A stretch of 64,000 bases of DNA from Bacilli bacterium (lineage in GTDB: Bacteria; Bacillota_I; Bacilli_A; RFN20; CAG-826). The notes below the pieces were generated by a model, which was not told the origin of the DNA, did not search any database, and saw only the letters and a list, made by a program, of their open reading frames with translations. Positions 456-54,951 of the stretch are shown here, in pieces. The stretch covers positions 19,676-83,675 of the forward strand of contig JAKSVK010000002.1 in NCBI GenBank assembly GCA_024408075.1, given 5' to 3'. A program made the translations under genes and the position numbers. The first letter of the stretch is position 1, and each line of letters begins with the position of its first letter.

Positions 456-532
456 TGGCGCGCTTGAGACGATTCGAACGTCCGACCCCTTCCTTAGGAG
501 GGAAGTGCTCTATCCAACTGAGCTACAAGCGC
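456..532 (-). tRNA. tRNA-Arg (anticodon CCT), CCA encoded
   Basis: The reverse complement is GCGCTTGTAGCTCAGTTGGATAGAGCACTTCCCTCCTAAGGAAGGGGTCGGACGTTCGAATCGTCTCAAGCGCGCCA. It has a 7-bp acceptor stem GCGCTTG/CAAGCGC, an anticodon arm CTTCC-CTCCTAA-GGAAG, a T-loop TTCGAAT, and is locally GC-rich. Confidence 0.9.
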
Positions 533-30022: not shown

Positions 30023-30411
30023 TGGTGGAGTCGGTGGTATCGAAACCACGTCCGAATAGGGCCATACAACAACTTCTACAGCTTAGTCATATGTTTATTA
30101 TTAACTATAAGAGAAGATATGAGTACTCTTTATAGCGAGATTAACAGGGCTTCGCGATAAATTAACTAATCAACTTTTTACCACTAGTCTTTTGGTATGA
30201 CACCTTTTCCAAGCGTGAAAGACTAAAACCTTGGAAAGATGCTCTGTTCTAACTAAAGAGTTAGATCCCTATGTCGGGTAGACTATGCTAAGCAGAGAGA
30301 TTGAGCTCTAGGAGCTCTGAATAAACTGTTGCCAGTTATTAATTTTGGTTTAAGGTTACCAACCGCTGCAGTTATTGCCCTGCCACAGTCCGTCGAATCC
30401 TTTTCGACCCC
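30023..30411 (-). ncRNA. ssrA: tmRNA (SsrA)
   Basis: On the reverse strand the 5' end is GGGGTCGAAAAGGATTCGACGG and the 3' end is GGACGTGGTTTCGATACCACCGACTCCACCA, giving the tRNA-like acceptor and T-arm. A tentative tag frame at 30333-30283 reads GNSLFRAPRAQSLCLA-stop. Confidence 0.9.
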
Positions 30412-48293: not shown

Positions 48294-48614
48294 CTAAAAA
48301 TTAATTAAATCACTAACTAATTTATTTTCTCTTCTTGAATCAAGAAATTTATCTACAAAAACTGTTGTTTCATTTACGCTATACAAAACAATATATCTTC
48401 CATTAGGCAATACAAATTTCCGAATTTGCTTTCCTAAAACAGTCAAGCCTTCAACAACTTGGTACCGAAAAGGAAATTCTTCTAAAGATTTGATTTCTTT
48501 AAAAATAACACTCAATTCTTTATCTGCAGAATTTTTATTTACATTTGCTAAAAATCTTATTGAGTCCAATATTGAATTTTTAGCATCTTCTGAAATAACA
48601 ACCTTATATATCAT
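48294..48614 (-). CDS. type II toxin, RelE/ParE family
   Basis: 106 aa, overlapping the antitoxin stop by 4 nt. Size and sequence are typical of this family. Confidence 0.65.
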   Translation of the reverse strand: MIYKVVISEDAKNSILDSIRFLANVNKNSADKELSVIFKEIKSLEEFPFRYQVVEGLTVLGKQIRKFVLPNGRYIVLYSVNETTVFVDKFLDSRRENKLVSDLINF

Positions 48615-48874
48615 AATTTTAAAATTTTTCTAATATCTTCTTCAGCATCACTCAAAGAACAATCTTTTGCACCAGTTAATCTTTTATATTCAATATCTAA
48701 TAATTCTTCTTTTAATTTTAATAATCTTTCTTTTCTTTCAAACGCTTCAATTGACATTAAAACTAAATCGCCTTCTCCATTTTTTGTTAGGTAAATAGGT
48801 TCATTTATTTTTTTGCATTTTCTTGATATTTCGTTGTATTTATTTCTTAATAATGTTGATGCAATAATTTCCAT
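48611..48874 (-). CDS. type II antitoxin, Phd/YefM family
   Basis: 87 aa with the N-terminus ...EPIYLTKNGEGDLVLMSIEAFE, typical of Phd/YefM. GGAGTG serves as the SD. Confidence 0.7.
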   Translation of the reverse strand: MEIIASTLLRNKYNEISRKCKKINEPIYLTKNGEGDLVLMSIEAFERKERLLKLKEELLDIEYKRLTGAKDCSLSDAEEDIRKILKL

Positions 48875-48930: not shown

Positions 48931-48959
48931 ACAAAAAGAGACCTTATTTCTAAGATCTC
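48931..48959 (-). terminator. terminator of the GGGtGRT operon
   Basis: The minus-strand RNA forms GAGAUCUU-agaaau-AAGGUCUC (one G-U pair), followed by UUUUUG. Confidence 0.55.
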
Positions 48960-48981: not shown

Positions 48982-49986
48982 TTATTTTGCTAATGCTTGA
49001 GCAACTGAAACAGCAACAGCAACTGTGGCACCAACCATAGGGTTGTTTCCCATTCCGATAAGTCCCATCATTTCAACGTGAGCTGGAACTGAGGATGAAC
49101 CAGCAAATTGAGCATCACTGTGCATTCTTCCCATTGTATCTGTCATACCATAGCTTGCAGGTCCTGCAGCCATGTTATCTGGGTGAAGTGTACGTCCTGT
49201 ACCACCACCTGAAGCAACTGAGAAATATTTCTTGCCTTGTTCAATACATTCTTTCTTGTATGTACCAGCTACTGGGTGTTGGAATCTAGTTGGGTTAGTT
49301 GAGTTACCAGTAATAGAAACATCAACACCTTCCATATGCATAATTGCAACACCTTCACGAACATCATCAGCACCATAGCAACGAACTGCTAATCTATCTG
49401 GGTTATTACCATATTTTGTTTCTTTAACAATTTCAACTTTACCAGTGAAGTAGTCAAATTTTGTTTCAACATGAGTAAATCCATTAATTCTAGAAATAAT
49501 CTTAGCAGCGTCTTTACCTAAACCATTTAAGATAACTCTAAGTGGTTCTTTACGAACTTTGTTTGCTTTTTTAGCAATACCAATTGCACCTTCAGCAGCA
49601 GCGAAACTTTCATGTCCTGCTAAGAATGCAAAGCATTTTGTTTCTTCTGATAAAAGCATTGCGCCTAAGTTACCATGACCTAAACCAACTTTACGATCAT
49701 CAGCAACTGATCCTGGAATACAGAATGATTGTAATCCAACACCAATCCATTTAGCAGCTTCAGCAGCATTTTTTGCTTTGTTTTTAATTGCAAGAGCAGC
49801 ACCGACTGTATAAGCCCAACATGCGTTTTCAAAACAAATAATTTGGATGTCTTTTACCATTTGGTAAACATCTAAACCTTTGTCTTTACAAATCTTTTCT
49901 GCTTCTTCAAGTGAAGCAATGCCATTTTCATTTAAGCACTTATTGATTTGTGCGATTCTTCTTTCATAACCTTCGAATAAAGCCAT
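48982..49986 (-). CDS. GGGtGRT-family protein (function unknown)
   Basis: 334 aa containing the eponymous motif SVASGGGTGRTLHP and a Gly/Ala/Met-rich C-terminus. AGGAGG serves as the SD. Confidence 0.75.
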   Translation of the reverse strand: MALFEGYERRIAQINKCLNENGIASLEEAEKICKDKGLDVYQMVKDIQIICFENACWAYTVGAALAIKNKAKNAAEAAKWIGVGLQSFCIPGSVADDRKVGLGHGNLGAMLLSEETKCFAFLAGHESFAAAEGAIGIAKKANKVRKEPLRVILNGLGKDAAKIISRINGFTHVETKFDYFTGKVEIVKETKYGNNPDRLAVRCYGADDVREGVAIMHMEGVDVSITGNSTNPTRFQHPVAGTYKKECIEQGKKYFSVASGGGTGRTLHPDNMAAGPASYGMTDTMGRMHSDAQFAGSSSVPAHVEMMGLIGMGNNPMVGATVAVAVSVAQALAK

Positions 49987-49998
49987 TGTCAGAACCTC

Positions 49999-50694
49999 CT
50001 ACTCTTTACGTGGGTCAATGAACTTGACACCATCATCATATCTACCATATTGTCCTTTAGCTTTTTCTAAAGCAGCTTCAGGAGTTTCACCCTTCTTTAA
50101 GAAGTCAGTGAATTTACCAAGTGATAAATATTGATAACCAATAATTTCATTATCTTTATCTAATGCCATAGAAGTAATATAACCTTCGGTTAATTCAAGA
50201 TAACGTGGTCCTTTTTCTTTTGTGGAATAAATTGTTCCAATTTGTGAACGTAATCCTTTTCCAAGATCTTCAAGTCCTGCACCAATTGCAAGTCCATCTT
50301 CTGAGAAAGCTGATTGAGTTCTACCATAAATAATTTGTAAGAAGAGTTCTCTCATAGCTGTGTTAATAGCATCACAAACTAAGTCAGTATTAACTGCTTC
50401 TAAAAGAGTTTTACCAACAATAGCTTCGCTAGCCATAGCAGCTGAGTGAGTCATGCCTGAACAGCCTAATGTTTCAATTAAAGCTTCTTCAATAATGCCC
50501 TTCTTAACATTTAATGAGATTTTACATGCACCTTGTTGTGGAGCACACCATCCAATACCATGAGTAAAGCCACTAATGTCTTCGATTTTTCTTGAATATA
50601 CCCATTTACCTTCTTCAGGAATTGGAGCACAACCATGAGAAGCACCGCAATTGACTTTGCACATGTTTTCTACATCTTTTGTATATTTCATCAA
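49999..50694 (-). CDS. NifU/IscU-like Fe-S scaffold homologue (atypical)
   Basis: 231 aa with a Cys-rich N-terminus (C12, C16, C22, C50, C57) and an IscU-like block IETLGCSGMTHSAAMASEAIVGKTLLEA. GGAGGG serves as the SD. Confidence 0.65.
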   Translation of the reverse strand: MMKYTKDVENMCKVNCGASHGCAPIPEEGKWVYSRKIEDISGFTHGIGWCAPQQGACKISLNVKKGIIEEALIETLGCSGMTHSAAMASEAIVGKTLLEAVNTDLVCDAINTAMRELFLQIIYGRTQSAFSEDGLAIGAGLEDLGKGLRSQIGTIYSTKEKGPRYLELTEGYITSMALDKDNEIIGYQYLSLGKFTDFLKKGETPEAALEKAKGQYGRYDDGVKFIDPRKE

Positions 50695-50766
50695 TATATC
50701 CCTCCTAATGTAACCATAAATATATTAAATATTTAATTAAATAATGTAAACAAAAAGGAAAAAGAT

Positions 50767-50955
50767 TTATACTTTTTCAATTTTTCGAAATGTTAATTTT
50801 CTTTTTTCCCCACATTCAATGTTATTTGCAAGTTCCCATCCTTCTTTTAAATGAGACTCAATTACTGCATTAGACTCATCACTAGTCACTAATACAGTTT
50901 TGCAAGTAACATGTTTTTCCATTATTGATCTAATTTGATCATCGGTTAATTTCAT
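50767..50955 (-). CDS. 62-aa hypothetical protein, first gene of the GGGtGRT operon
   Basis: A TATAAT box (reverse complement of 50962-50967) lies 6 nt before the ATG. No terminator is seen before the next gene. Confidence 0.5.
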   Translation of the reverse strand: MKLTDDQIRSIMEKHVTCKTVLVTSDESNAVIESHLKEGWELANNIECGEKRKLTFRKIEKV

Positions 50956-54084: not shown

Positions 54085-54951
54085 TCATTTTTCTTTTATC
54101 ATATTTACTGAAACCATAAAAGTCTCTTTATTAAAACCTGAAATAATAGAGTCATTATTTTTAATAAAACGCAAAACGTCTTTTTTGCACTCATCAAAAT
54201 TGACTTCATTAAATTTATCTATCAAAACTTTTTTCAAAGTATCGAGTGAAAATTGTTCATTGCTATCCAAATAGCCAAATTTTCTAAGACCATTATTTAA
54301 AAATGATAAATTCACTTTAGTATCTTTTGACAAATAAAATAGGTAATCGTAAAAATCTCTGCCCTTTAATCTTGAATCCCATTTTCTATTTAAAATTGCA
54401 ATCAATTTTGAAGCAAATAAAGTTTCCATATCAAAAGTTTTCACGAAACATAAATTCGGCTTAAAGAGTAAAAGATTCTCAAAATTTCCTTCAAAAATGC
54501 CATTTTTTCCAATTTCTACTTTTACTGATAGAATTTCATTAGAAATAATTTTTCTTGTAAATTTTGGATAAGTTATCTCAACCAACATTTTAAGATTAAA
54601 ATTAAAAAAATATGATTCAACTGAAGTTTCTTGTTTTTTCTGTTTACTAGAAAGTTCACATTCTAATCCAAATGAACTCAACGTTTCTTTTGCTTGTAAT
54701 AAATATTTTTTAAAATCAAATTCTGTTGAACAATTCGTCATTAAAAAATCTAAGTCTTCAGAAAATCTTGGTAATCCTCTAAATATACGTAAAGATGTCC
54801 CTCCATAAAAAACTGCATTTCTGAAAAAATCATCTTTTGCAAGACCACAAAGTATGATTCTTTGTATTACTTCTTTCATTGAATTTTTAATATCTTCAAG
54901 AGTAATTGGTTCATACTCTTTAATTAATGATAAAAATGAATAATTAATCAT
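54085..54951 (-). CDS. AbiEii/AbiGii-family nucleotidyltransferase toxin (type IV TA / abortive infection)
   Basis: 288 aa with the hallmark NTase block FYGGTSLRIFRGLPRFSEDLDF. It overlaps the upstream antitoxin fragment by 8 nt. Confidence 0.8.
   Translation of the reverse strand: MINYSFLSLIKEYEPITLEDIKNSMKEVIQRIILCGLAKDDFFRNAVFYGGTSLRIFRGLPRFSEDLDFLMTNCSTEFDFKKYLLQAKETLSSFGLECELSSKQKKQETSVESYFFNFNLKMLVEITYPKFTRKIISNEILSVKVEIGKNGIFEGNFENLLLFKPNLCFVKTFDMETLFASKLIAILNRKWDSRLKGRDFYDYLFYLSKDTKVNLSFLNNGLRKFGYLDSNEQFSLDTLKKVLIDKFNEVNFDECKKDVLRFIKNNDSIISGFNKETFMVSVNMIKEK

What the first reader, a model, noticed from the sequence alone, without database searches (positions are those of the whole stretch)
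48982..50955. Three-gene operon: 62-aa protein + atypical NifU-like protein + GGGtGRT protein - a conserved system of unknown function
The 334-aa protein carries the invariant motif GGGTGRT (SVASGGGTGRTLHPDNMAAGPASYGMTDTMGR). It belongs to the family that RefSeq names only 'GGGtGRT protein', which has no assigned function. Directly upstream, 12 nt away and with its own strong SD, is a 231-aa protein. It combines a Cys-rich N-terminus (CKVNCGASHGC...GWCAPQQGAC) with an IscU/NifU-like core (ETLGCSGMTHSAAMASE), but is about twice the size of IscU and lacks the usual IscU context of cysteine desulfurase and chaperones. A 62-aa ORF with a leaderless-type promoter heads the unit, and a hairpin terminator (48931-48959) closes it. 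The tight pairing suggests a dedicated metallocluster- or cofactor-dependent enzyme system that has not been characterised experimentally, as far as I know. Redox genes lie nearby: an EFR1 ferredoxin, SDRs and an XdhC-like gene.
Basis: partly seen in the sequence, partly recalled or inferred. Interest (0 to 1): 0.7.

Follow-up and report, generated by a model that had tools for sequence, protein, structure and literature searches.

The report
Candidate iron-sulfur enolase gene pair
Two tightly coupled genes, one for an IscU-like iron-sulfur protein and one for a "GGGtGRT" protein, form an extremely conserved, abundant and uncharacterised module of anaerobes, and its gene neighbourhoods and published proteomes make it a testable candidate for the glycolytic enolase step that many rumen and gut bacteria appear to lack.

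Summary
The sequence features are real: a GGGtGRT gene (48982-49986, minus strand; Pfam PF14057, E=3e-193), a 230-aa IscU-fold gene 12 nt upstream, a 62-aa ORF and a terminator. The conserved unit has two genes, not three. In 158 of 160 loci from at least 8 phyla the NifU-like gene sits directly upstream of GGGtGRT; the other two loci are cut at a contig end. The 62-aa ORF occurs only in close relatives and is not adjacent there. The nearby redox genes are not conserved with the pair. GGGtGRT has no sequence or fold match in PDB. The NifU-like subunit keeps the IscU core but lacks Asp39, His105 and LPPVK, and has four invariant Cys. The pair evolves much more slowly than Pgk or Tpi. The only recurring single-copy neighbours are lower-glycolysis and glycogen genes: pgk-tpi-gpmI followed by the pair, the pair followed by pyk, and apgM with His_Phos_1. 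Enolase-negative Prevotella brevis and Butyrivibrio all carry the pair, and in P. brevis it ranks 19th and 24th in the proteome. My best reading (about 0.4) is an iron-sulfur 2-phosphoglycerate dehydratase, that is, a non-homologous enolase. No biochemistry exists yet.

The parts
48938..48959 (-). Intrinsic-terminator-like hairpin (9-bp stem, T-run) 22 nt after the GGGtGRT stop codon; it closes the unit
   Evidence: sequence
48982..49986 (-). GGGtGRT subunit gene (334 aa): N-terminal helical domain, central alpha/beta domain, nearly invariant C-terminal block
   Evidence: PF14057, 641 bits; AF2 pLDDT 83, pTM 0.83; 156 positions at least 98% conserved in 77 sequences
49039..49218 (-). Hyper-conserved block, residues 257-316 (VASGGGTGRTLHPDNM...GNNP). 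It holds the Gly-rich S259-x5-R265-T266 loop after a beta-strand and is His/Met/Ser-rich. AF2 predicts it with pLDDT below 50, so it probably orders only with a partner, cofactor or substrate.
   Evidence: the phosphate-cradle reading is inference from the motif
49453..49539 (-). beta-alpha-beta element, residues 150-178, with G155-x-G157-x-x-A160 and D178 (Rossmann-type nucleotide-binding fingerprint); all are at least 98% conserved
   Evidence: secondary structure; conservation; weak Foldseek hits to NAD(P) Rossmann domains. Nucleotide binding itself is inferred.
49987..50000 (-). 12-nt intergenic spacer; the Shine-Dalgarno AGGAGG (49995-50000) overlaps the TAG stop of the upstream gene, an arrangement typical of translational coupling
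   Evidence: a short gap (mostly 8-40 nt) is conserved in 158 loci
49999..50691 (-). IscU-fold ('NifU-like') subunit gene, 230 aa from the ATG at 50691 (ORF listing gives the TTG at 50694); SD AGGAGG at 50701-50706
   Evidence: homologs are 230 aa
50329..50571 (-). IscU-like core, residues 41-121, carrying the invariant C49 (50545-50547), C56, C77, C106 and H44, H82: the putative Fe-S cluster site
   Evidence: hhalign E=6e-6 to E. coli IscU over residues 56-104; rmsd 2.9 A over about 96 residues
50722..50750 (-). Promoter-like site TTTACA-17-TAATAT just upstream of the pair. This is a weak consensus match only, and the region is not conserved in relatives.
50767..50955 (-). 62-aa ORF: a real but lineage-restricted small gene that is NOT part of the conserved module
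   Evidence: no Pfam, NCBIfam or PHROG hit

Best explanation
The locus is a bicistronic operon, with gene spacing that suggests translational coupling, for a two-subunit iron-sulfur enzyme. The 230-aa subunit uses an IscU fold to hold a permanent Fe-S cluster through invariant Cys49/56/77/106. It does not hold a transient assembly intermediate. The 334-aa GGGtGRT subunit supplies the substrate site, including a Gly-rich anion- or phosphate-binding loop.

I propose that the complex works in lower glycolysis as an oxygen-sensitive, iron-dependent 2-phosphoglycerate dehydratase (2-PG <-> PEP + H2O). That would make it a non-homologous enolase. It would work like Fe-S L-serine dehydratase or class I fumarase: the unique Fe of the cluster activates the C3 hydroxyl, and a base removes the C2 proton. 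It would be an isozyme in enolase-positive anaerobes and the only enolase in enolase-negative Prevotella, Segatella, Butyrivibrio and Lachnospiraceae.

Shown: the conserved pairing, the IscU fold with altered ligands, extreme conservation, high abundance, iron-responsive expression, and the glycolytic gene neighbourhood.
Inferred: physical complex formation, cluster type, substrate and reaction.

My graded confidence is about 0.85 for a conserved heteromeric Fe-S protein, about 0.6 for a role in lower glycolysis, and about 0.4 for enolase activity.
For: (1) Obligate pairing. The NifU-like gene lies directly upstream of GGGtGRT in 158 of 160 loci from Bacillota, Bacteroidota, Actinomycetota, Spirochaetota, Lentisphaeria, Myxococcota, Vibrio and Methanobacteriaceae.

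(2) Unbiased neighbour clustering over 177 loci and 78 lineages. Apart from large multi-copy families, the recurring neighbours are His_Phos_1 (6 lineages), apgM (4), a clade-restricted uncharacterised membrane protein (4), pyruvate kinase (3), pgk, tpi and gpmI (3 each) and glgB (3). The order is pgk-tpiA-gpmI-pair in L033, L043, L047 and L177. L153 has pair-pyk with a 24-nt gap. Together these are the slot that eno occupies in the canonical gap-pgk-tpi-gpmI-eno operon of Firmicutes (own knowledge). A divergent clade keeps apgM, gpmI and His_Phos_1 around the pair despite rearrangement. No enolase or GAPDH signature was found in any locus.

(3) The missing-enolase puzzle. Enolase-negative isolates are under 0.5% of more than 30,000 genomes and are mostly rumen Butyrivibrio, Prevotella and Lachnospiraceae, and no substitute is known (PMC6118326, PMC11187502). 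PF14057 is present as exactly one copy in both eno+ and eno- Butyrivibrio (Suppl. Table 6). It is 1.72-fold over-represented in rumen isolates, where the enolase Pfams are at 0.83-0.84 (Suppl. Table 11).

(4) P. brevis GA33 has every EMP enzyme except enolase in both genome and proteome (Table S3). In its cell extract GGGtGRT ranks 19th and the NifU homolog 24th by spectra, among the glycolytic enzymes. P. ruminicola 23 has an eno gene, but Eno was not detected in any of 6 proteome sets. S. copri DSM 18205 lacks eno, and GGGtGRT from S. copri is the antigen of a monoclonal antibody raised against that species.

(5) Iron-responsive like other Fe-S isozymes. Expression falls 11- to 12.8-fold in iron-limited B. 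thetaiotaomicron. In C. pasteurianum the proteins are 7.1x and 2.4-3.7x higher with iron.

(6) Transposon insertions in BT0173-4 came out of the same glucose-signalling screen as pfkA.

(7) The IscU core lacks the scaffold features Asp39, His105 and LPPVK.

(8) The pair is far more conserved than Pgk or Tpi in the same genomes: 80-93% and 75-92% identity, against 48-89% and 44-78%.
Against: There is no biochemical or genetic test of any activity.

The pair is kept, and is extremely conserved, in thousands of enolase-positive anaerobes. B. thetaiotaomicron insertion mutants grow normally on glucose and show only a 2-fold reporter effect.

A dehydratase needs no dinucleotide, yet GGGtGRT has a conserved Rossmann-type GxGxxA...D element. 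Fe-S hydro-lyases use three Cys ligands, whereas four Cys are invariant here. A catalytic cluster on an IscU fold has no precedent.

Glycolytic neighbours occur in only about 10 of 78 lineages, and some of these share ancestry. With about 0.4 lineages expected per single-copy gene, it is the shared theme that is significant, not each count. I did not screen other uncharacterised families for the same phyletic pattern, so the candidate is not shown to be unique. Absence of enolase from the loci rests on a PROSITE-pattern scan only.
Confidence: 0.4

Rival explanations
1. The pair is a lower-glycolysis enzyme but catalyses a different reaction. One option is a ferredoxin- or NAD-linked, non-phosphorylating oxidation of glyceraldehyde-3-phosphate to 3-phosphoglycerate, a pterin-free analogue of GAPOR/GapN. 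Another is some other conversion at the phosphoglycerate node.
For: The neighbours are phosphoglycerate mutases of three types, plus pgk and tpi. GGGtGRT has a Rossmann-type GxGxxA...D element, an invariant Cys203, several invariant His and an anion-binding loop, which resembles the GAPDH tool-kit. In C. pasteurianum GapN rises 2.7x under iron limitation while the pair falls. The gap gene is also absent from the pgk-tpi-gpmI-pair operons.
Against: The adjacency to pyruvate kinase and the position after gpmI fit the 2-PG/PEP step better. GAPDH is present and is the most abundant protein in P. brevis, so no gap exists at that step, whereas enolase is the missing one. No flavin or pterin site is evident that could couple a two-electron oxidation to an Fe-S cluster.
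Confidence: 0.2
2. The pair is a dedicated Fe-S cluster scaffold, carrier, repair or storage system. The NifU-like protein assembles or stores clusters, and GGGtGRT is its partner (sulfur or iron donor, or a nucleotide-dependent transfer factor).
For: The IscU fold and core motif are present. Databases name the protein 'NifU' or 'Fe-S cluster assembly scaffold'. Expression is iron-responsive. The NifU homolog is abundant in gut metaproteomes.
Against: The scaffold-defining features are missing: Asp39, His105, the LPPVK chaperone site and Cys37 in register. NCBIfam equivalog scores are 27 against 187.9 and 20 against 192. No cysteine desulfurase, chaperone or SUF gene recurs nearby. The pair is repressed, not induced, by iron limitation (own knowledge: stress-responsive assembly systems such as SUF are typically induced). 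Its abundance is at the level of glycolytic enzymes. The glycolytic neighbourhood is left unexplained.
Confidence: 0.12
3. The pair is an abundant redox or stress-defence oxidoreductase of anaerobes, acting on oxygen, reactive oxygen species, NO or some small molecule. It is unrelated to glycolysis, and the glycolytic neighbours are a coincidence of synteny.
For: It is restricted to anaerobes and facultative anaerobes. In gut proteomes it is reported together with rubrerythrin. There are occasional neighbours of this type: rubredoxin (L094); TlpA, OsmC and nitroreductase (P. distasonis); DJ-1/PfpI. A possible NAD-binding element sits next to an Fe-S subunit.
Against: None of these neighbours recurs across lineages, whereas the glycolysis genes do. 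No Rex, PerR, Fur, HcpR or FNR boxes are enriched upstream. This reading does not explain the enolase-negative genomes.
Confidence: 0.15
4. One reading: a three-gene operon in which the 62-aa protein is a functional component of a metallocluster or cofactor system linked to the nearby ferredoxin, SDR and XdhC genes.
For: The three ORFs are co-oriented with no detected terminator between them. The 62-aa ORF is a real gene with homologs in close relatives.
Against: The ORF is absent from 160 loci in other taxa. In the 96-97% identical relatives it is separated from the pair by other genes, and in one case by an opposite-strand gene. The flanking redox genes are separated from the pair by toxin-antitoxin modules and are not conserved with it.
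Confidence: 0.03

Closest known systems
Orthologous pairs already noted in the literature: B. thetaiotaomicron BT0173-BT0174, C. pasteurianum F502_05012/F502_05017, P. brevis T433DRAFT_01350/01351
   Same: The same two families in the same order and with the same sizes. They are about 75-85% (GGGtGRT) and 63-77% (NifU-like) identical to the window proteins, judged from orthologs of the same phyla. They are iron-responsive and abundant.
   Different: Nothing essential; the window carries an ordinary ortholog from a Bacilli/Erysipelotrichaceae-like genome. None of these pairs has an assigned function.
IscU / NifU N-terminal domain Fe-S scaffolds (PF01592, TIGR01999)
   Same: The fold of residues about 41-121 (Foldseek probability 1.0, TM about 0.5 on the target, rmsd 2.9 A). 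The GCxx motif (Cys63 equivalent) and a Cys at the start of the C-terminal helix (Cys106 equivalent).
   Different: Cys37 and Asp39 are replaced by a C-x6-C pair (C49, C56). His105 and LPPVK are absent. There is an extra C-terminal domain of about 110 aa with no fold match. There is no desulfurase or chaperone context. The obligate partner is GGGtGRT. Scores are far below the equivalog cut-offs.
Two-subunit Fe-S hydro-lyases (L-serine dehydratase SdaAA/SdaAB, class I fumarase, tartrate dehydratase TtdAB)
   Same: The proposed chemistry (loss of an alpha-H and a beta-OH from a carboxylate on a [4Fe-4S] cluster), a two-gene operon of about 200 + 300 aa, restriction to anaerobic or iron-replete conditions, and coexistence with a metal-cluster-free isozyme (FumA/FumC).
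   Different: No sequence or fold similarity was detected. The cluster would sit on an IscU fold. The activity is untested.
Canonical enolase (PF00113/PF03952, Mg2+-dependent)
   Same: The proposed reaction, the position in glycolytic operons between gpmI and pyk, and the high abundance.
   Different: No homology. The proposed enzyme depends on iron-sulfur rather than Mg2+, has two subunits and is presumably oxygen-sensitive.

Membership tests
GGGtGRT protein (Pfam PF14057) | Full-length HMM match above the gathering score | tested here: met
   641.4 bits against a cut-off of 27; residues 4-331 match profile positions 1-327
GGGtGRT protein (Pfam PF14057) | GGGTGRT motif and a length of about 330-345 aa | tested here: met
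   Motif at residues 260-266, length 334 aa; the motif is invariant in 94 aligned members
GGGtGRT / NifU-like two-gene module | A 220-240-aa IscU-fold gene directly upstream on the same strand | tested here: met
   12-nt gap in the window; the same arrangement in 158 of 160 loci
IscU/NifU_N Fe-S assembly scaffold | HMM score at or above the curated cut-offs | tested here: inconclusive
   Pfam NifU_N 22.3 bits against 22 (borderline). NCBIfam equivalogs: 27 against 187.9, 20.2 against 192.4, 17.8 against 92.5
IscU/NifU_N Fe-S assembly scaffold | IscU alpha/beta fold | tested here: met
   Foldseek probability 1.0 to IscU structures, rmsd 2.9 A over about 96 residues. The model is only moderate (pLDDT 70)
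IscU/NifU_N Fe-S assembly scaffold | Ligand set Cys37, Asp39, Cys63, His105, Cys106 (E. coli numbering) | tested here: not met
   Only the Cys63 and Cys106 equivalents are kept. Cys37 and Asp39 align to Gln and Ala, flanked by C49 and C56.
IscU/NifU_N Fe-S assembly scaffold | LPPVK chaperone-binding motif | tested here: not met
   The segment is deleted: NTDLVCDAIN in the window against NTDIAEELELPPVKIHCS in IscU
IscU/NifU_N Fe-S assembly scaffold | Genomic association with a cysteine desulfurase, chaperones or SUF genes | tested here: not met
   No such family recurs among the neighbours
Fe-S hydro-lyases (SDH_alpha/beta, Fumerase, Aconitase, ILVD_EDD) | Sequence or fold homology to a known hydro-lyase family | tested here: not met
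   No Pfam hit other than PF14057 and NifU_N; no PDB sequence or fold match. The resemblance is to the proposed mechanism only.
Fe-S hydro-lyases (SDH_alpha/beta, Fumerase, Aconitase, ILVD_EDD) | A [4Fe-4S] cluster with three Cys ligands and a substrate-binding Fe | not testable with these tools
   Four Cys are invariant; cluster type and ligation need spectroscopy or a structure
Enolase superfamily | Enolase N-terminal and TIM-barrel domains | tested here: not met
   No PF00113 or PF03952 hit; the predicted fold is different
Rossmann-fold NAD(P)-binding proteins | beta-alpha-beta element with GxGxxG/A and an acidic residue at the end of beta2 | tested here: inconclusive
   The motif (G155, G157, A160, D178) and the predicted beta-alpha-beta are present and conserved. 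Foldseek matches are only partial and weak (probability 0.9-0.97, TM about 0.24, E above 0.02).

The most novel reading that the evidence does not exclude
The NifU-like/GGGtGRT pair is the long-sought replacement for enolase in enolase-negative rumen and gut anaerobes. It would be an oxygen-sensitive iron-sulfur 2-phosphoglycerate dehydratase whose catalytic cluster sits on a re-purposed IscU fold. It may be the main enolase of many strict anaerobes under iron-replete conditions. This would be a new, non-homologous enzyme for a core glycolytic step that is thought to be universally conserved.
Probability: 0.4. Interest if true: 0.95.

Novelty: categorically new. Interest (0 to 1): 0.85.

Why it matters
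Enolase is regarded as one of the most universal enzymes. Its absence from Butyrivibrio proteoclasticus and many Prevotella, Segatella, Butyrivibrio and Lachnospiraceae genomes has been an open problem since 2010, and a 2024 review still lists it as unsolved (PMC11187502).

A two-protein, iron-sulfur-dependent enzyme that fills this step would have several consequences:
- It would close a gap in metabolic models of dominant rumen and gut fermenters.
- It would add a new enzyme family and a new catalytic use of the IscU fold.
- It would explain why 'NifU homologs' and GGGtGRT proteins are among the most abundant proteins in gut and rumen metaproteomes.
- It would tie glycolytic flux in anaerobes to iron supply and oxygen exposure.
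- It might provide a fluoride-insensitive route that is specific to anaerobes.

Even if the enolase idea is wrong, the pair is one of the most conserved and abundant uncharacterised protein systems in anaerobes, with a median of 80% identity across phyla. The family is already catalogued (Pfam, RefSeq) and the pairing has been noted before. What is new is the evidence-based functional hypothesis, and the demonstration that the main subunit resembles no characterised protein.

Tried and rejected
1. PDB sequence and profile searches for GGGtGRT found nothing. Foldseek against PDB found nothing significant (best E 0.02, TM 0.25). The C-terminal domain of the NifU-like protein also has no match.
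2. A riboswitch or leader search with Rfam on 22 loci found none upstream of the pair.
3. Known regulator boxes (Rex, Fur, PerR, cre, FNR/CRP, IscR, HcpR) were scanned in 130 upstream regions and showed no enrichment over shuffles.
4. The upstream promoter region is not conserved even among close relatives.
5. A mobile-element explanation for the high identity is not supported. Plasmid hits are chromids or misassigned chromosome pieces, all non-mobilizable. The 'phage' hits are unannotated faecal virome contigs. A phage integrase is adjacent in only 3-4 lineages.
6. The longer 'homologs' (P0001, P0024, P0121, P0241 and others) were examined as possible natural fusions that could stand in for a complex model. 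They are assembly chimeras with internal duplications.
7. The metagenome scan seeded with the divergent clade returned only main-clade loci.
8. The 62-aa ORF and its relatives have no Pfam, NCBIfam, PHROG or PDB match.
9. The FtsZ/tubulin GGGTG signature and Walker-A readings of the motif were considered. Neither has fold support.
10. A Cu(I)-binding reading of the Met/His-rich block was considered. There is no evidence for or against it.
11. Literature searches for BT0173/BT0174, PF14057 and NifU together with glycolysis genes found no functional study.
Full report
**1. What is in the window**

On the minus strand there are three ORFs: 50767-50955 (62 aa), 49999-50694 (231 aa from a TTG) and 48982-49986 (334 aa).
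- The 334-aa protein matches Pfam PF14057 'GGGtGRT protein' end to end (641 bits, E=3.2e-193). It has no NCBIfam model.
- The upstream protein barely reaches the Pfam NifU_N threshold (22.3 bits against 22) and is far below every NCBIfam IscU/NifU/SufU cut-off.
- Nearly all homologs of the upstream protein are 230 aa and begin M-x-Y. The real start is therefore probably the ATG at 50691.
- The two genes are 12 nt apart. An AGGAGG overlaps the upstream TAG stop, 8 nt before the GGGtGRT ATG, which suggests translational coupling.
- A terminator-like hairpin follows at 48938-48959.
- Promoter-like matches in the region are no more frequent than in shuffled sequence, so nothing can be said about promoters.

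The closest relatives of both proteins are in Erysipelotrichaceae, Bacilli and Acholeplasmatales MAGs from gut samples.

**2. The unit has two genes, not three**

I fetched 80 loci from GTDB species genomes and 80 from metagenomes using GGGtGRT as bait. A NifU-like gene lies directly upstream on the same strand in 158 of them, mostly 8-40 nt away. The two exceptions have fewer than 155 nt of upstream DNA.

The taxa include Clostridia, Erysipelotrichia, Bacteroidales, Collinsella and Eggerthellaceae, Treponema, Lentisphaeria and Myxococcota/'Deltaproteobacteria' MAGs. They also include a Methanobacteriaceae MAG and Vibrio chromosome 2.

The 62-aa ORF has no homolog in any of these loci.
- Its exact sequence occurs on only three contigs of the same organism.
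- In relatives whose GGGtGRT is 96-97% identical, 33-49% identical small ORFs exist. They are separated from the pair by one or more genes, and in one lineage by an opposite-strand gene.

It is a real, fast-evolving, lineage-restricted small gene of unknown function, and it is not a member of the system.

The window's other neighbours are a Phd/ParE toxin-antitoxin pair, a GH31 glycosidase, two SDR epimerases, a flavodoxin-4Fe4S protein, AbiEii and XdhC. They are not conserved with the pair: 114 immediately flanking genes from other loci hit 199 different Pfam families, and none more than four times.

**3. Conservation**

An exhaustive HMMER search of 1.84 billion cluster representatives (50% identity) returned essentially two full-length clusters, at 77% and 53% identity to the window protein. 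The remaining hits are fragments or chimeras.
- Median pairwise identity among 153 GGGtGRT sequences is 80%; among 122 NifU-like sequences it is 76%.
- In genome pairs whose Pgk is 48-68% and Tpi 44-61% identical, GGGtGRT is 80-91% and NifU-like 75-77% identical.
- Residues 257-316 of GGGtGRT are almost invariant.

Plasmid and phage databases give no sign that the pair is mobile-element cargo.

**4. Anatomy**

GGGtGRT. AlphaFold2 on a 94-sequence alignment gives pLDDT 83 and pTM 0.83. The model has an N-terminal helical domain (residues 1-113) and an alpha/beta domain (118-260). The invariant block 260-306 is predicted with pLDDT below 50, and a C-terminal helix follows.
- Foldseek against PDB finds nothing significant. 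The best E is 0.02 and TM is about 0.25, with partial hits to Rossmann-type domains.
- PDB sequence and profile searches find nothing.
- Two motif-level inferences follow. Strand 150-156, G155-L-G157-K-D-A160, helix 158-168 and strand 171-178 ending in D178 have the spacing of a dinucleotide-binding beta-alpha-beta element. Strand 255-259 followed by S259-GGGTG-R265-T266 resembles phosphate-cradle loops of the CX5R(S/T) type.
- Cys203 and His104, 125, 237, 268, 289 and 303 are conserved.

NifU-like. The model is moderate (pLDDT 70).
- Residues about 41-121 superpose on IscU structures (probability 1.0, rmsd 2.9 A, 20-24% identity).
- hhalign to E. coli IscU covers only residues 56-104 (E=6e-6).
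- The invariant residues are C49, C56, C77, C106, H44 and H82.
- IscU Cys37 and Asp39 are not conserved in register, His105 is Val, and the LPPVK segment is deleted.
- The C-terminal domain of about 110 residues has no fold match.

Loss of the cluster-labilising Asp and of the chaperone site, together with four invariant Cys, argues for a permanently bound cluster rather than a scaffold. This is inference.

**5. What the literature already holds**

- The pair is BT0173-BT0174 in B. thetaiotaomicron. Expression drops 11- to 12.8-fold under iron limitation (PMC10434189).
- Transposon insertions in BT0173-4 came out of a screen for loss of glucose-dependent inhibition of the regulator Cur, together with pfkA. 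The effect was 2-fold and growth on glucose was normal (bioRxiv 10.64898/2026.04.10.717545).
- In C. pasteurianum, GGGtGRT is 7.1-fold and the adjacent NifU-related protein 2.4-3.7-fold higher with excess iron (PMC5395762).
- The proteins are highly expressed by chicken-gut, rumen and human-gut anaerobes.
- Two papers from 2024-2025 state that the function is unknown.

**6. The only recurrent genomic theme is lower glycolysis**

I clustered all ORFs within about 6 kb of the pair in 177 loci (78 lineages at 93% GGGtGRT identity) and annotated the top clusters. Besides multi-copy families (ABC ATPases, response regulators, integrases, SDRs), the recurrent neighbours are:
- histidine-phosphatase/dPGM-like proteins (6 lineages);
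- apgM (4 lineages);
- an uncharacterised membrane protein restricted to one clade (4 lineages);
- pyruvate kinase (3 lineages);
- pgk, tpiA and gpmI (3 lineages each);
- glgB (3 lineages).

In more detail:
- L033, L043, L047 and L177 have pgk-tpiA-gpmI followed by the pair on one strand.
- L054 has the pair followed by SpoU-pgk-tpiA.
- L153 has NifU-like-GGGtGRT-pyk with a 24-nt gap. L134 and L046 have pyk in two other arrangements, with Pyk only 43-50% identical among the three.
- A divergent GGGtGRT clade (52-59% identical to the window protein) keeps apgM (above its equivalog cut-off), a His_Phos_1 gene and, in one case, gpmI around the pair despite rearrangements.
- His_Phos_1 also sits next to the pair in the window's closest relatives and in [Eubacterium] hominis.
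- No enolase or GAPDH signature occurs in any locus (PROSITE patterns only).

A caveat applies. With about 0.4 lineages expected by chance for any given single-copy gene, counts of three are not individually compelling, and some lineages share ancestry. The signal is that nearly all recurrent single-copy neighbours belong to one short pathway segment. In operons the pair sits after gpmI and before pyk, the place of eno in the canonical gap-pgk-tpi-gpmI-eno operon of Firmicutes (own knowledge).

**7. Link to the 'missing enolase'**

The Hungate1000 study found enolase-negative strains in under 0.5% of more than 30,000 isolates. They were concentrated in rumen Butyrivibrio, Prevotella and Lachnospiraceae, and no complementing function was found (PMC6118326). 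A 2024 review still lists this as an open gap (PMC11187502).
- In that study's Supplementary Table 6, PF14057 is present as exactly one copy in both enolase-positive and enolase-negative Butyrivibrio (ratio 1.003).
- In Supplementary Table 11 it is 1.72-fold over-represented in rumen relative to human-gut isolates (q=5e-7), while the enolase Pfams are at 0.83-0.84.
- Prevotella brevis GA33 has every EMP enzyme in genome and proteome, including GpmI, ApgM and PK, except enolase (PMC10542786 Table S3).
- In its glucose-grown cell extract, GGGtGRT is 19th and the NifU homolog 24th by spectral count (115 and 104). For comparison, GAPDH has 302, PGK 268, FBA 143 and PPi-PFK 88 (Table S5).
- P. ruminicola 23 has an eno gene, but the protein was not detected in any of six data sets, although all other glycolytic enzymes were (Table S4).
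- S. copri DSM 18205 also lacks an annotated eno (bioRxiv 10.64898/2026.06.02.729653), and the GGGtGRT protein of S. copri is the antigen of a monoclonal antibody raised against that species.

**8. Interpretation**

The most economical reading is that the pair is an iron-sulfur 2-phosphoglycerate dehydratase. The chemistry is that of the Fe-S hydro-lyases (established knowledge for aconitase, class I fumarase and L-serine dehydratase): removal of the proton alpha to a carboxylate and of a beta-hydroxyl bound to the unique Fe. 2-PG is the 2-phospho analogue of the serine and malate type of substrate.

This reading accounts for:
- the operon position and the abundance;
- the restriction to anaerobes;
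- repression under iron limitation (compare FumA/FumC);
- dispensability where enolase is present;
- the co-isolation of BT0173-4 and pfkA insertions in the same glucose-signalling screen;
- the tolerance of enolase loss in lineages that all carry the pair.

It does not explain:
- the Rossmann-like element;
- the fourth invariant Cys;
- why the pair is so strongly conserved in enolase-positive organisms.

No activity has been measured. I put about 0.85 on 'conserved heteromeric Fe-S protein, not an assembly scaffold', about 0.6 on 'lower glycolysis' and about 0.4 on 'enolase'. The rivals are another reaction at the triose-phosphate/phosphoglycerate node (0.2), an unrelated redox or stress enzyme (0.15), an Fe-S scaffold, repair or storage role (0.12), and the three-gene reading (0.03).

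**9. Novelty and verdict**

The locus itself is an ordinary ortholog of a catalogued family, and the pairing has been noted before. The system resembles no characterised one. GGGtGRT has no homolog of known function or structure, and the IscU-like subunit fails the scaffold's defining features.

The new element is a specific, cheaply testable hypothesis bearing on a 15-year-old open question.

Noticed in passing
window 50767-50955 (-); L089 3402-3581; L084 3007-3189: The 62-aa ORF belongs to a small, fast-evolving protein family (33-49% identity) found only in close relatives. There it is followed by different genes, for example an overlapping 93-aa ORF in L084. It has no Pfam, NCBIfam, PHROG or PDB match.
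   Followed up: partly
window 48294-48874 (-) and 54085-54951 (-): A Phd/YefM-ParE type II toxin-antitoxin pair lies directly downstream of the unit, and an AbiEii toxin gene lies 3 kb upstream.
   Followed up: partly
window 30023-30411 (-) and 456-532 (-): A tmRNA gene with the tag peptide GNSLFRAPRAQSLCLA, and a tRNA-Arg(CCT).
   Followed up: no
L182 4800-4991 (Parabacteroides distasonis NZ_OY725823.1): A 63-aa ORF with two predicted membrane helices is annotated between the NifU-like and GGGtGRT genes, with a 193-nt gap. A few other loci also have gaps of 150-190 nt (L047 and two metagenome loci). It is unrelated to the window's 62-aa ORF.
   Followed up: partly
L090 6957-7958; L095 6992-7972; L097 2067-3065; L099 3808-4770: In the divergent GGGtGRT clade, a conserved 317-333-aa protein with an N-terminal membrane segment and no family match always follows GGGtGRT, before the His_Phos_1 gene. 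The NifU-like protein of this clade lacks the N-terminal Cys-rich segment, and its stop overlaps the GGGtGRT start.
   Followed up: partly
L075 5245-7014 (-); L033 3692-6202 (-); L134 5293-6900 (-): Long antisense ORFs (535-836 aa) span the pair in high-GC genomes. They are probably artefacts of strong codon bias in highly expressed genes, and they misled my first greedy ORF caller.
   Followed up: partly
proteins P0001, P0024, P0025, P0121, P0122, P0241: The top-scoring 'homologs' in the protein collections that are longer than 334 or 230 aa carry internal tandem duplications of 45-160 residues. They look like metagenome assembly chimeras, not fusions.
   Followed up: yes
L002, L023, L077, L113 (for example L023 7116-8414): A tyrosine-recombinase (phage integrase) gene lies next to the pair in 3-4 lineages. 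I found no other sign of mobility.
   Followed up: partly
L181 5254-6963 (Vibrio sp. THAF191d, 1.85-Mb replicon): Marine Vibrio (a facultative anaerobe) and Persicobacter carry the pair at 68-76% identity, so it is not confined to strict gut anaerobes.
   Followed up: no
PMC10542786 Table S4 (P. ruminicola 23, PRU_1102): The canonical enolase gene is present, but its product was not detected in any of six proteome data sets from glucose-grown cells, although all other EMP enzymes were. The authors did not comment on this.
   Followed up: partly
L021 3243-3321 (-): A ZMP/ZTP riboswitch lies about 2 kb upstream of the pair on the opposite strand. It is not associated with the pair.
   Followed up: no
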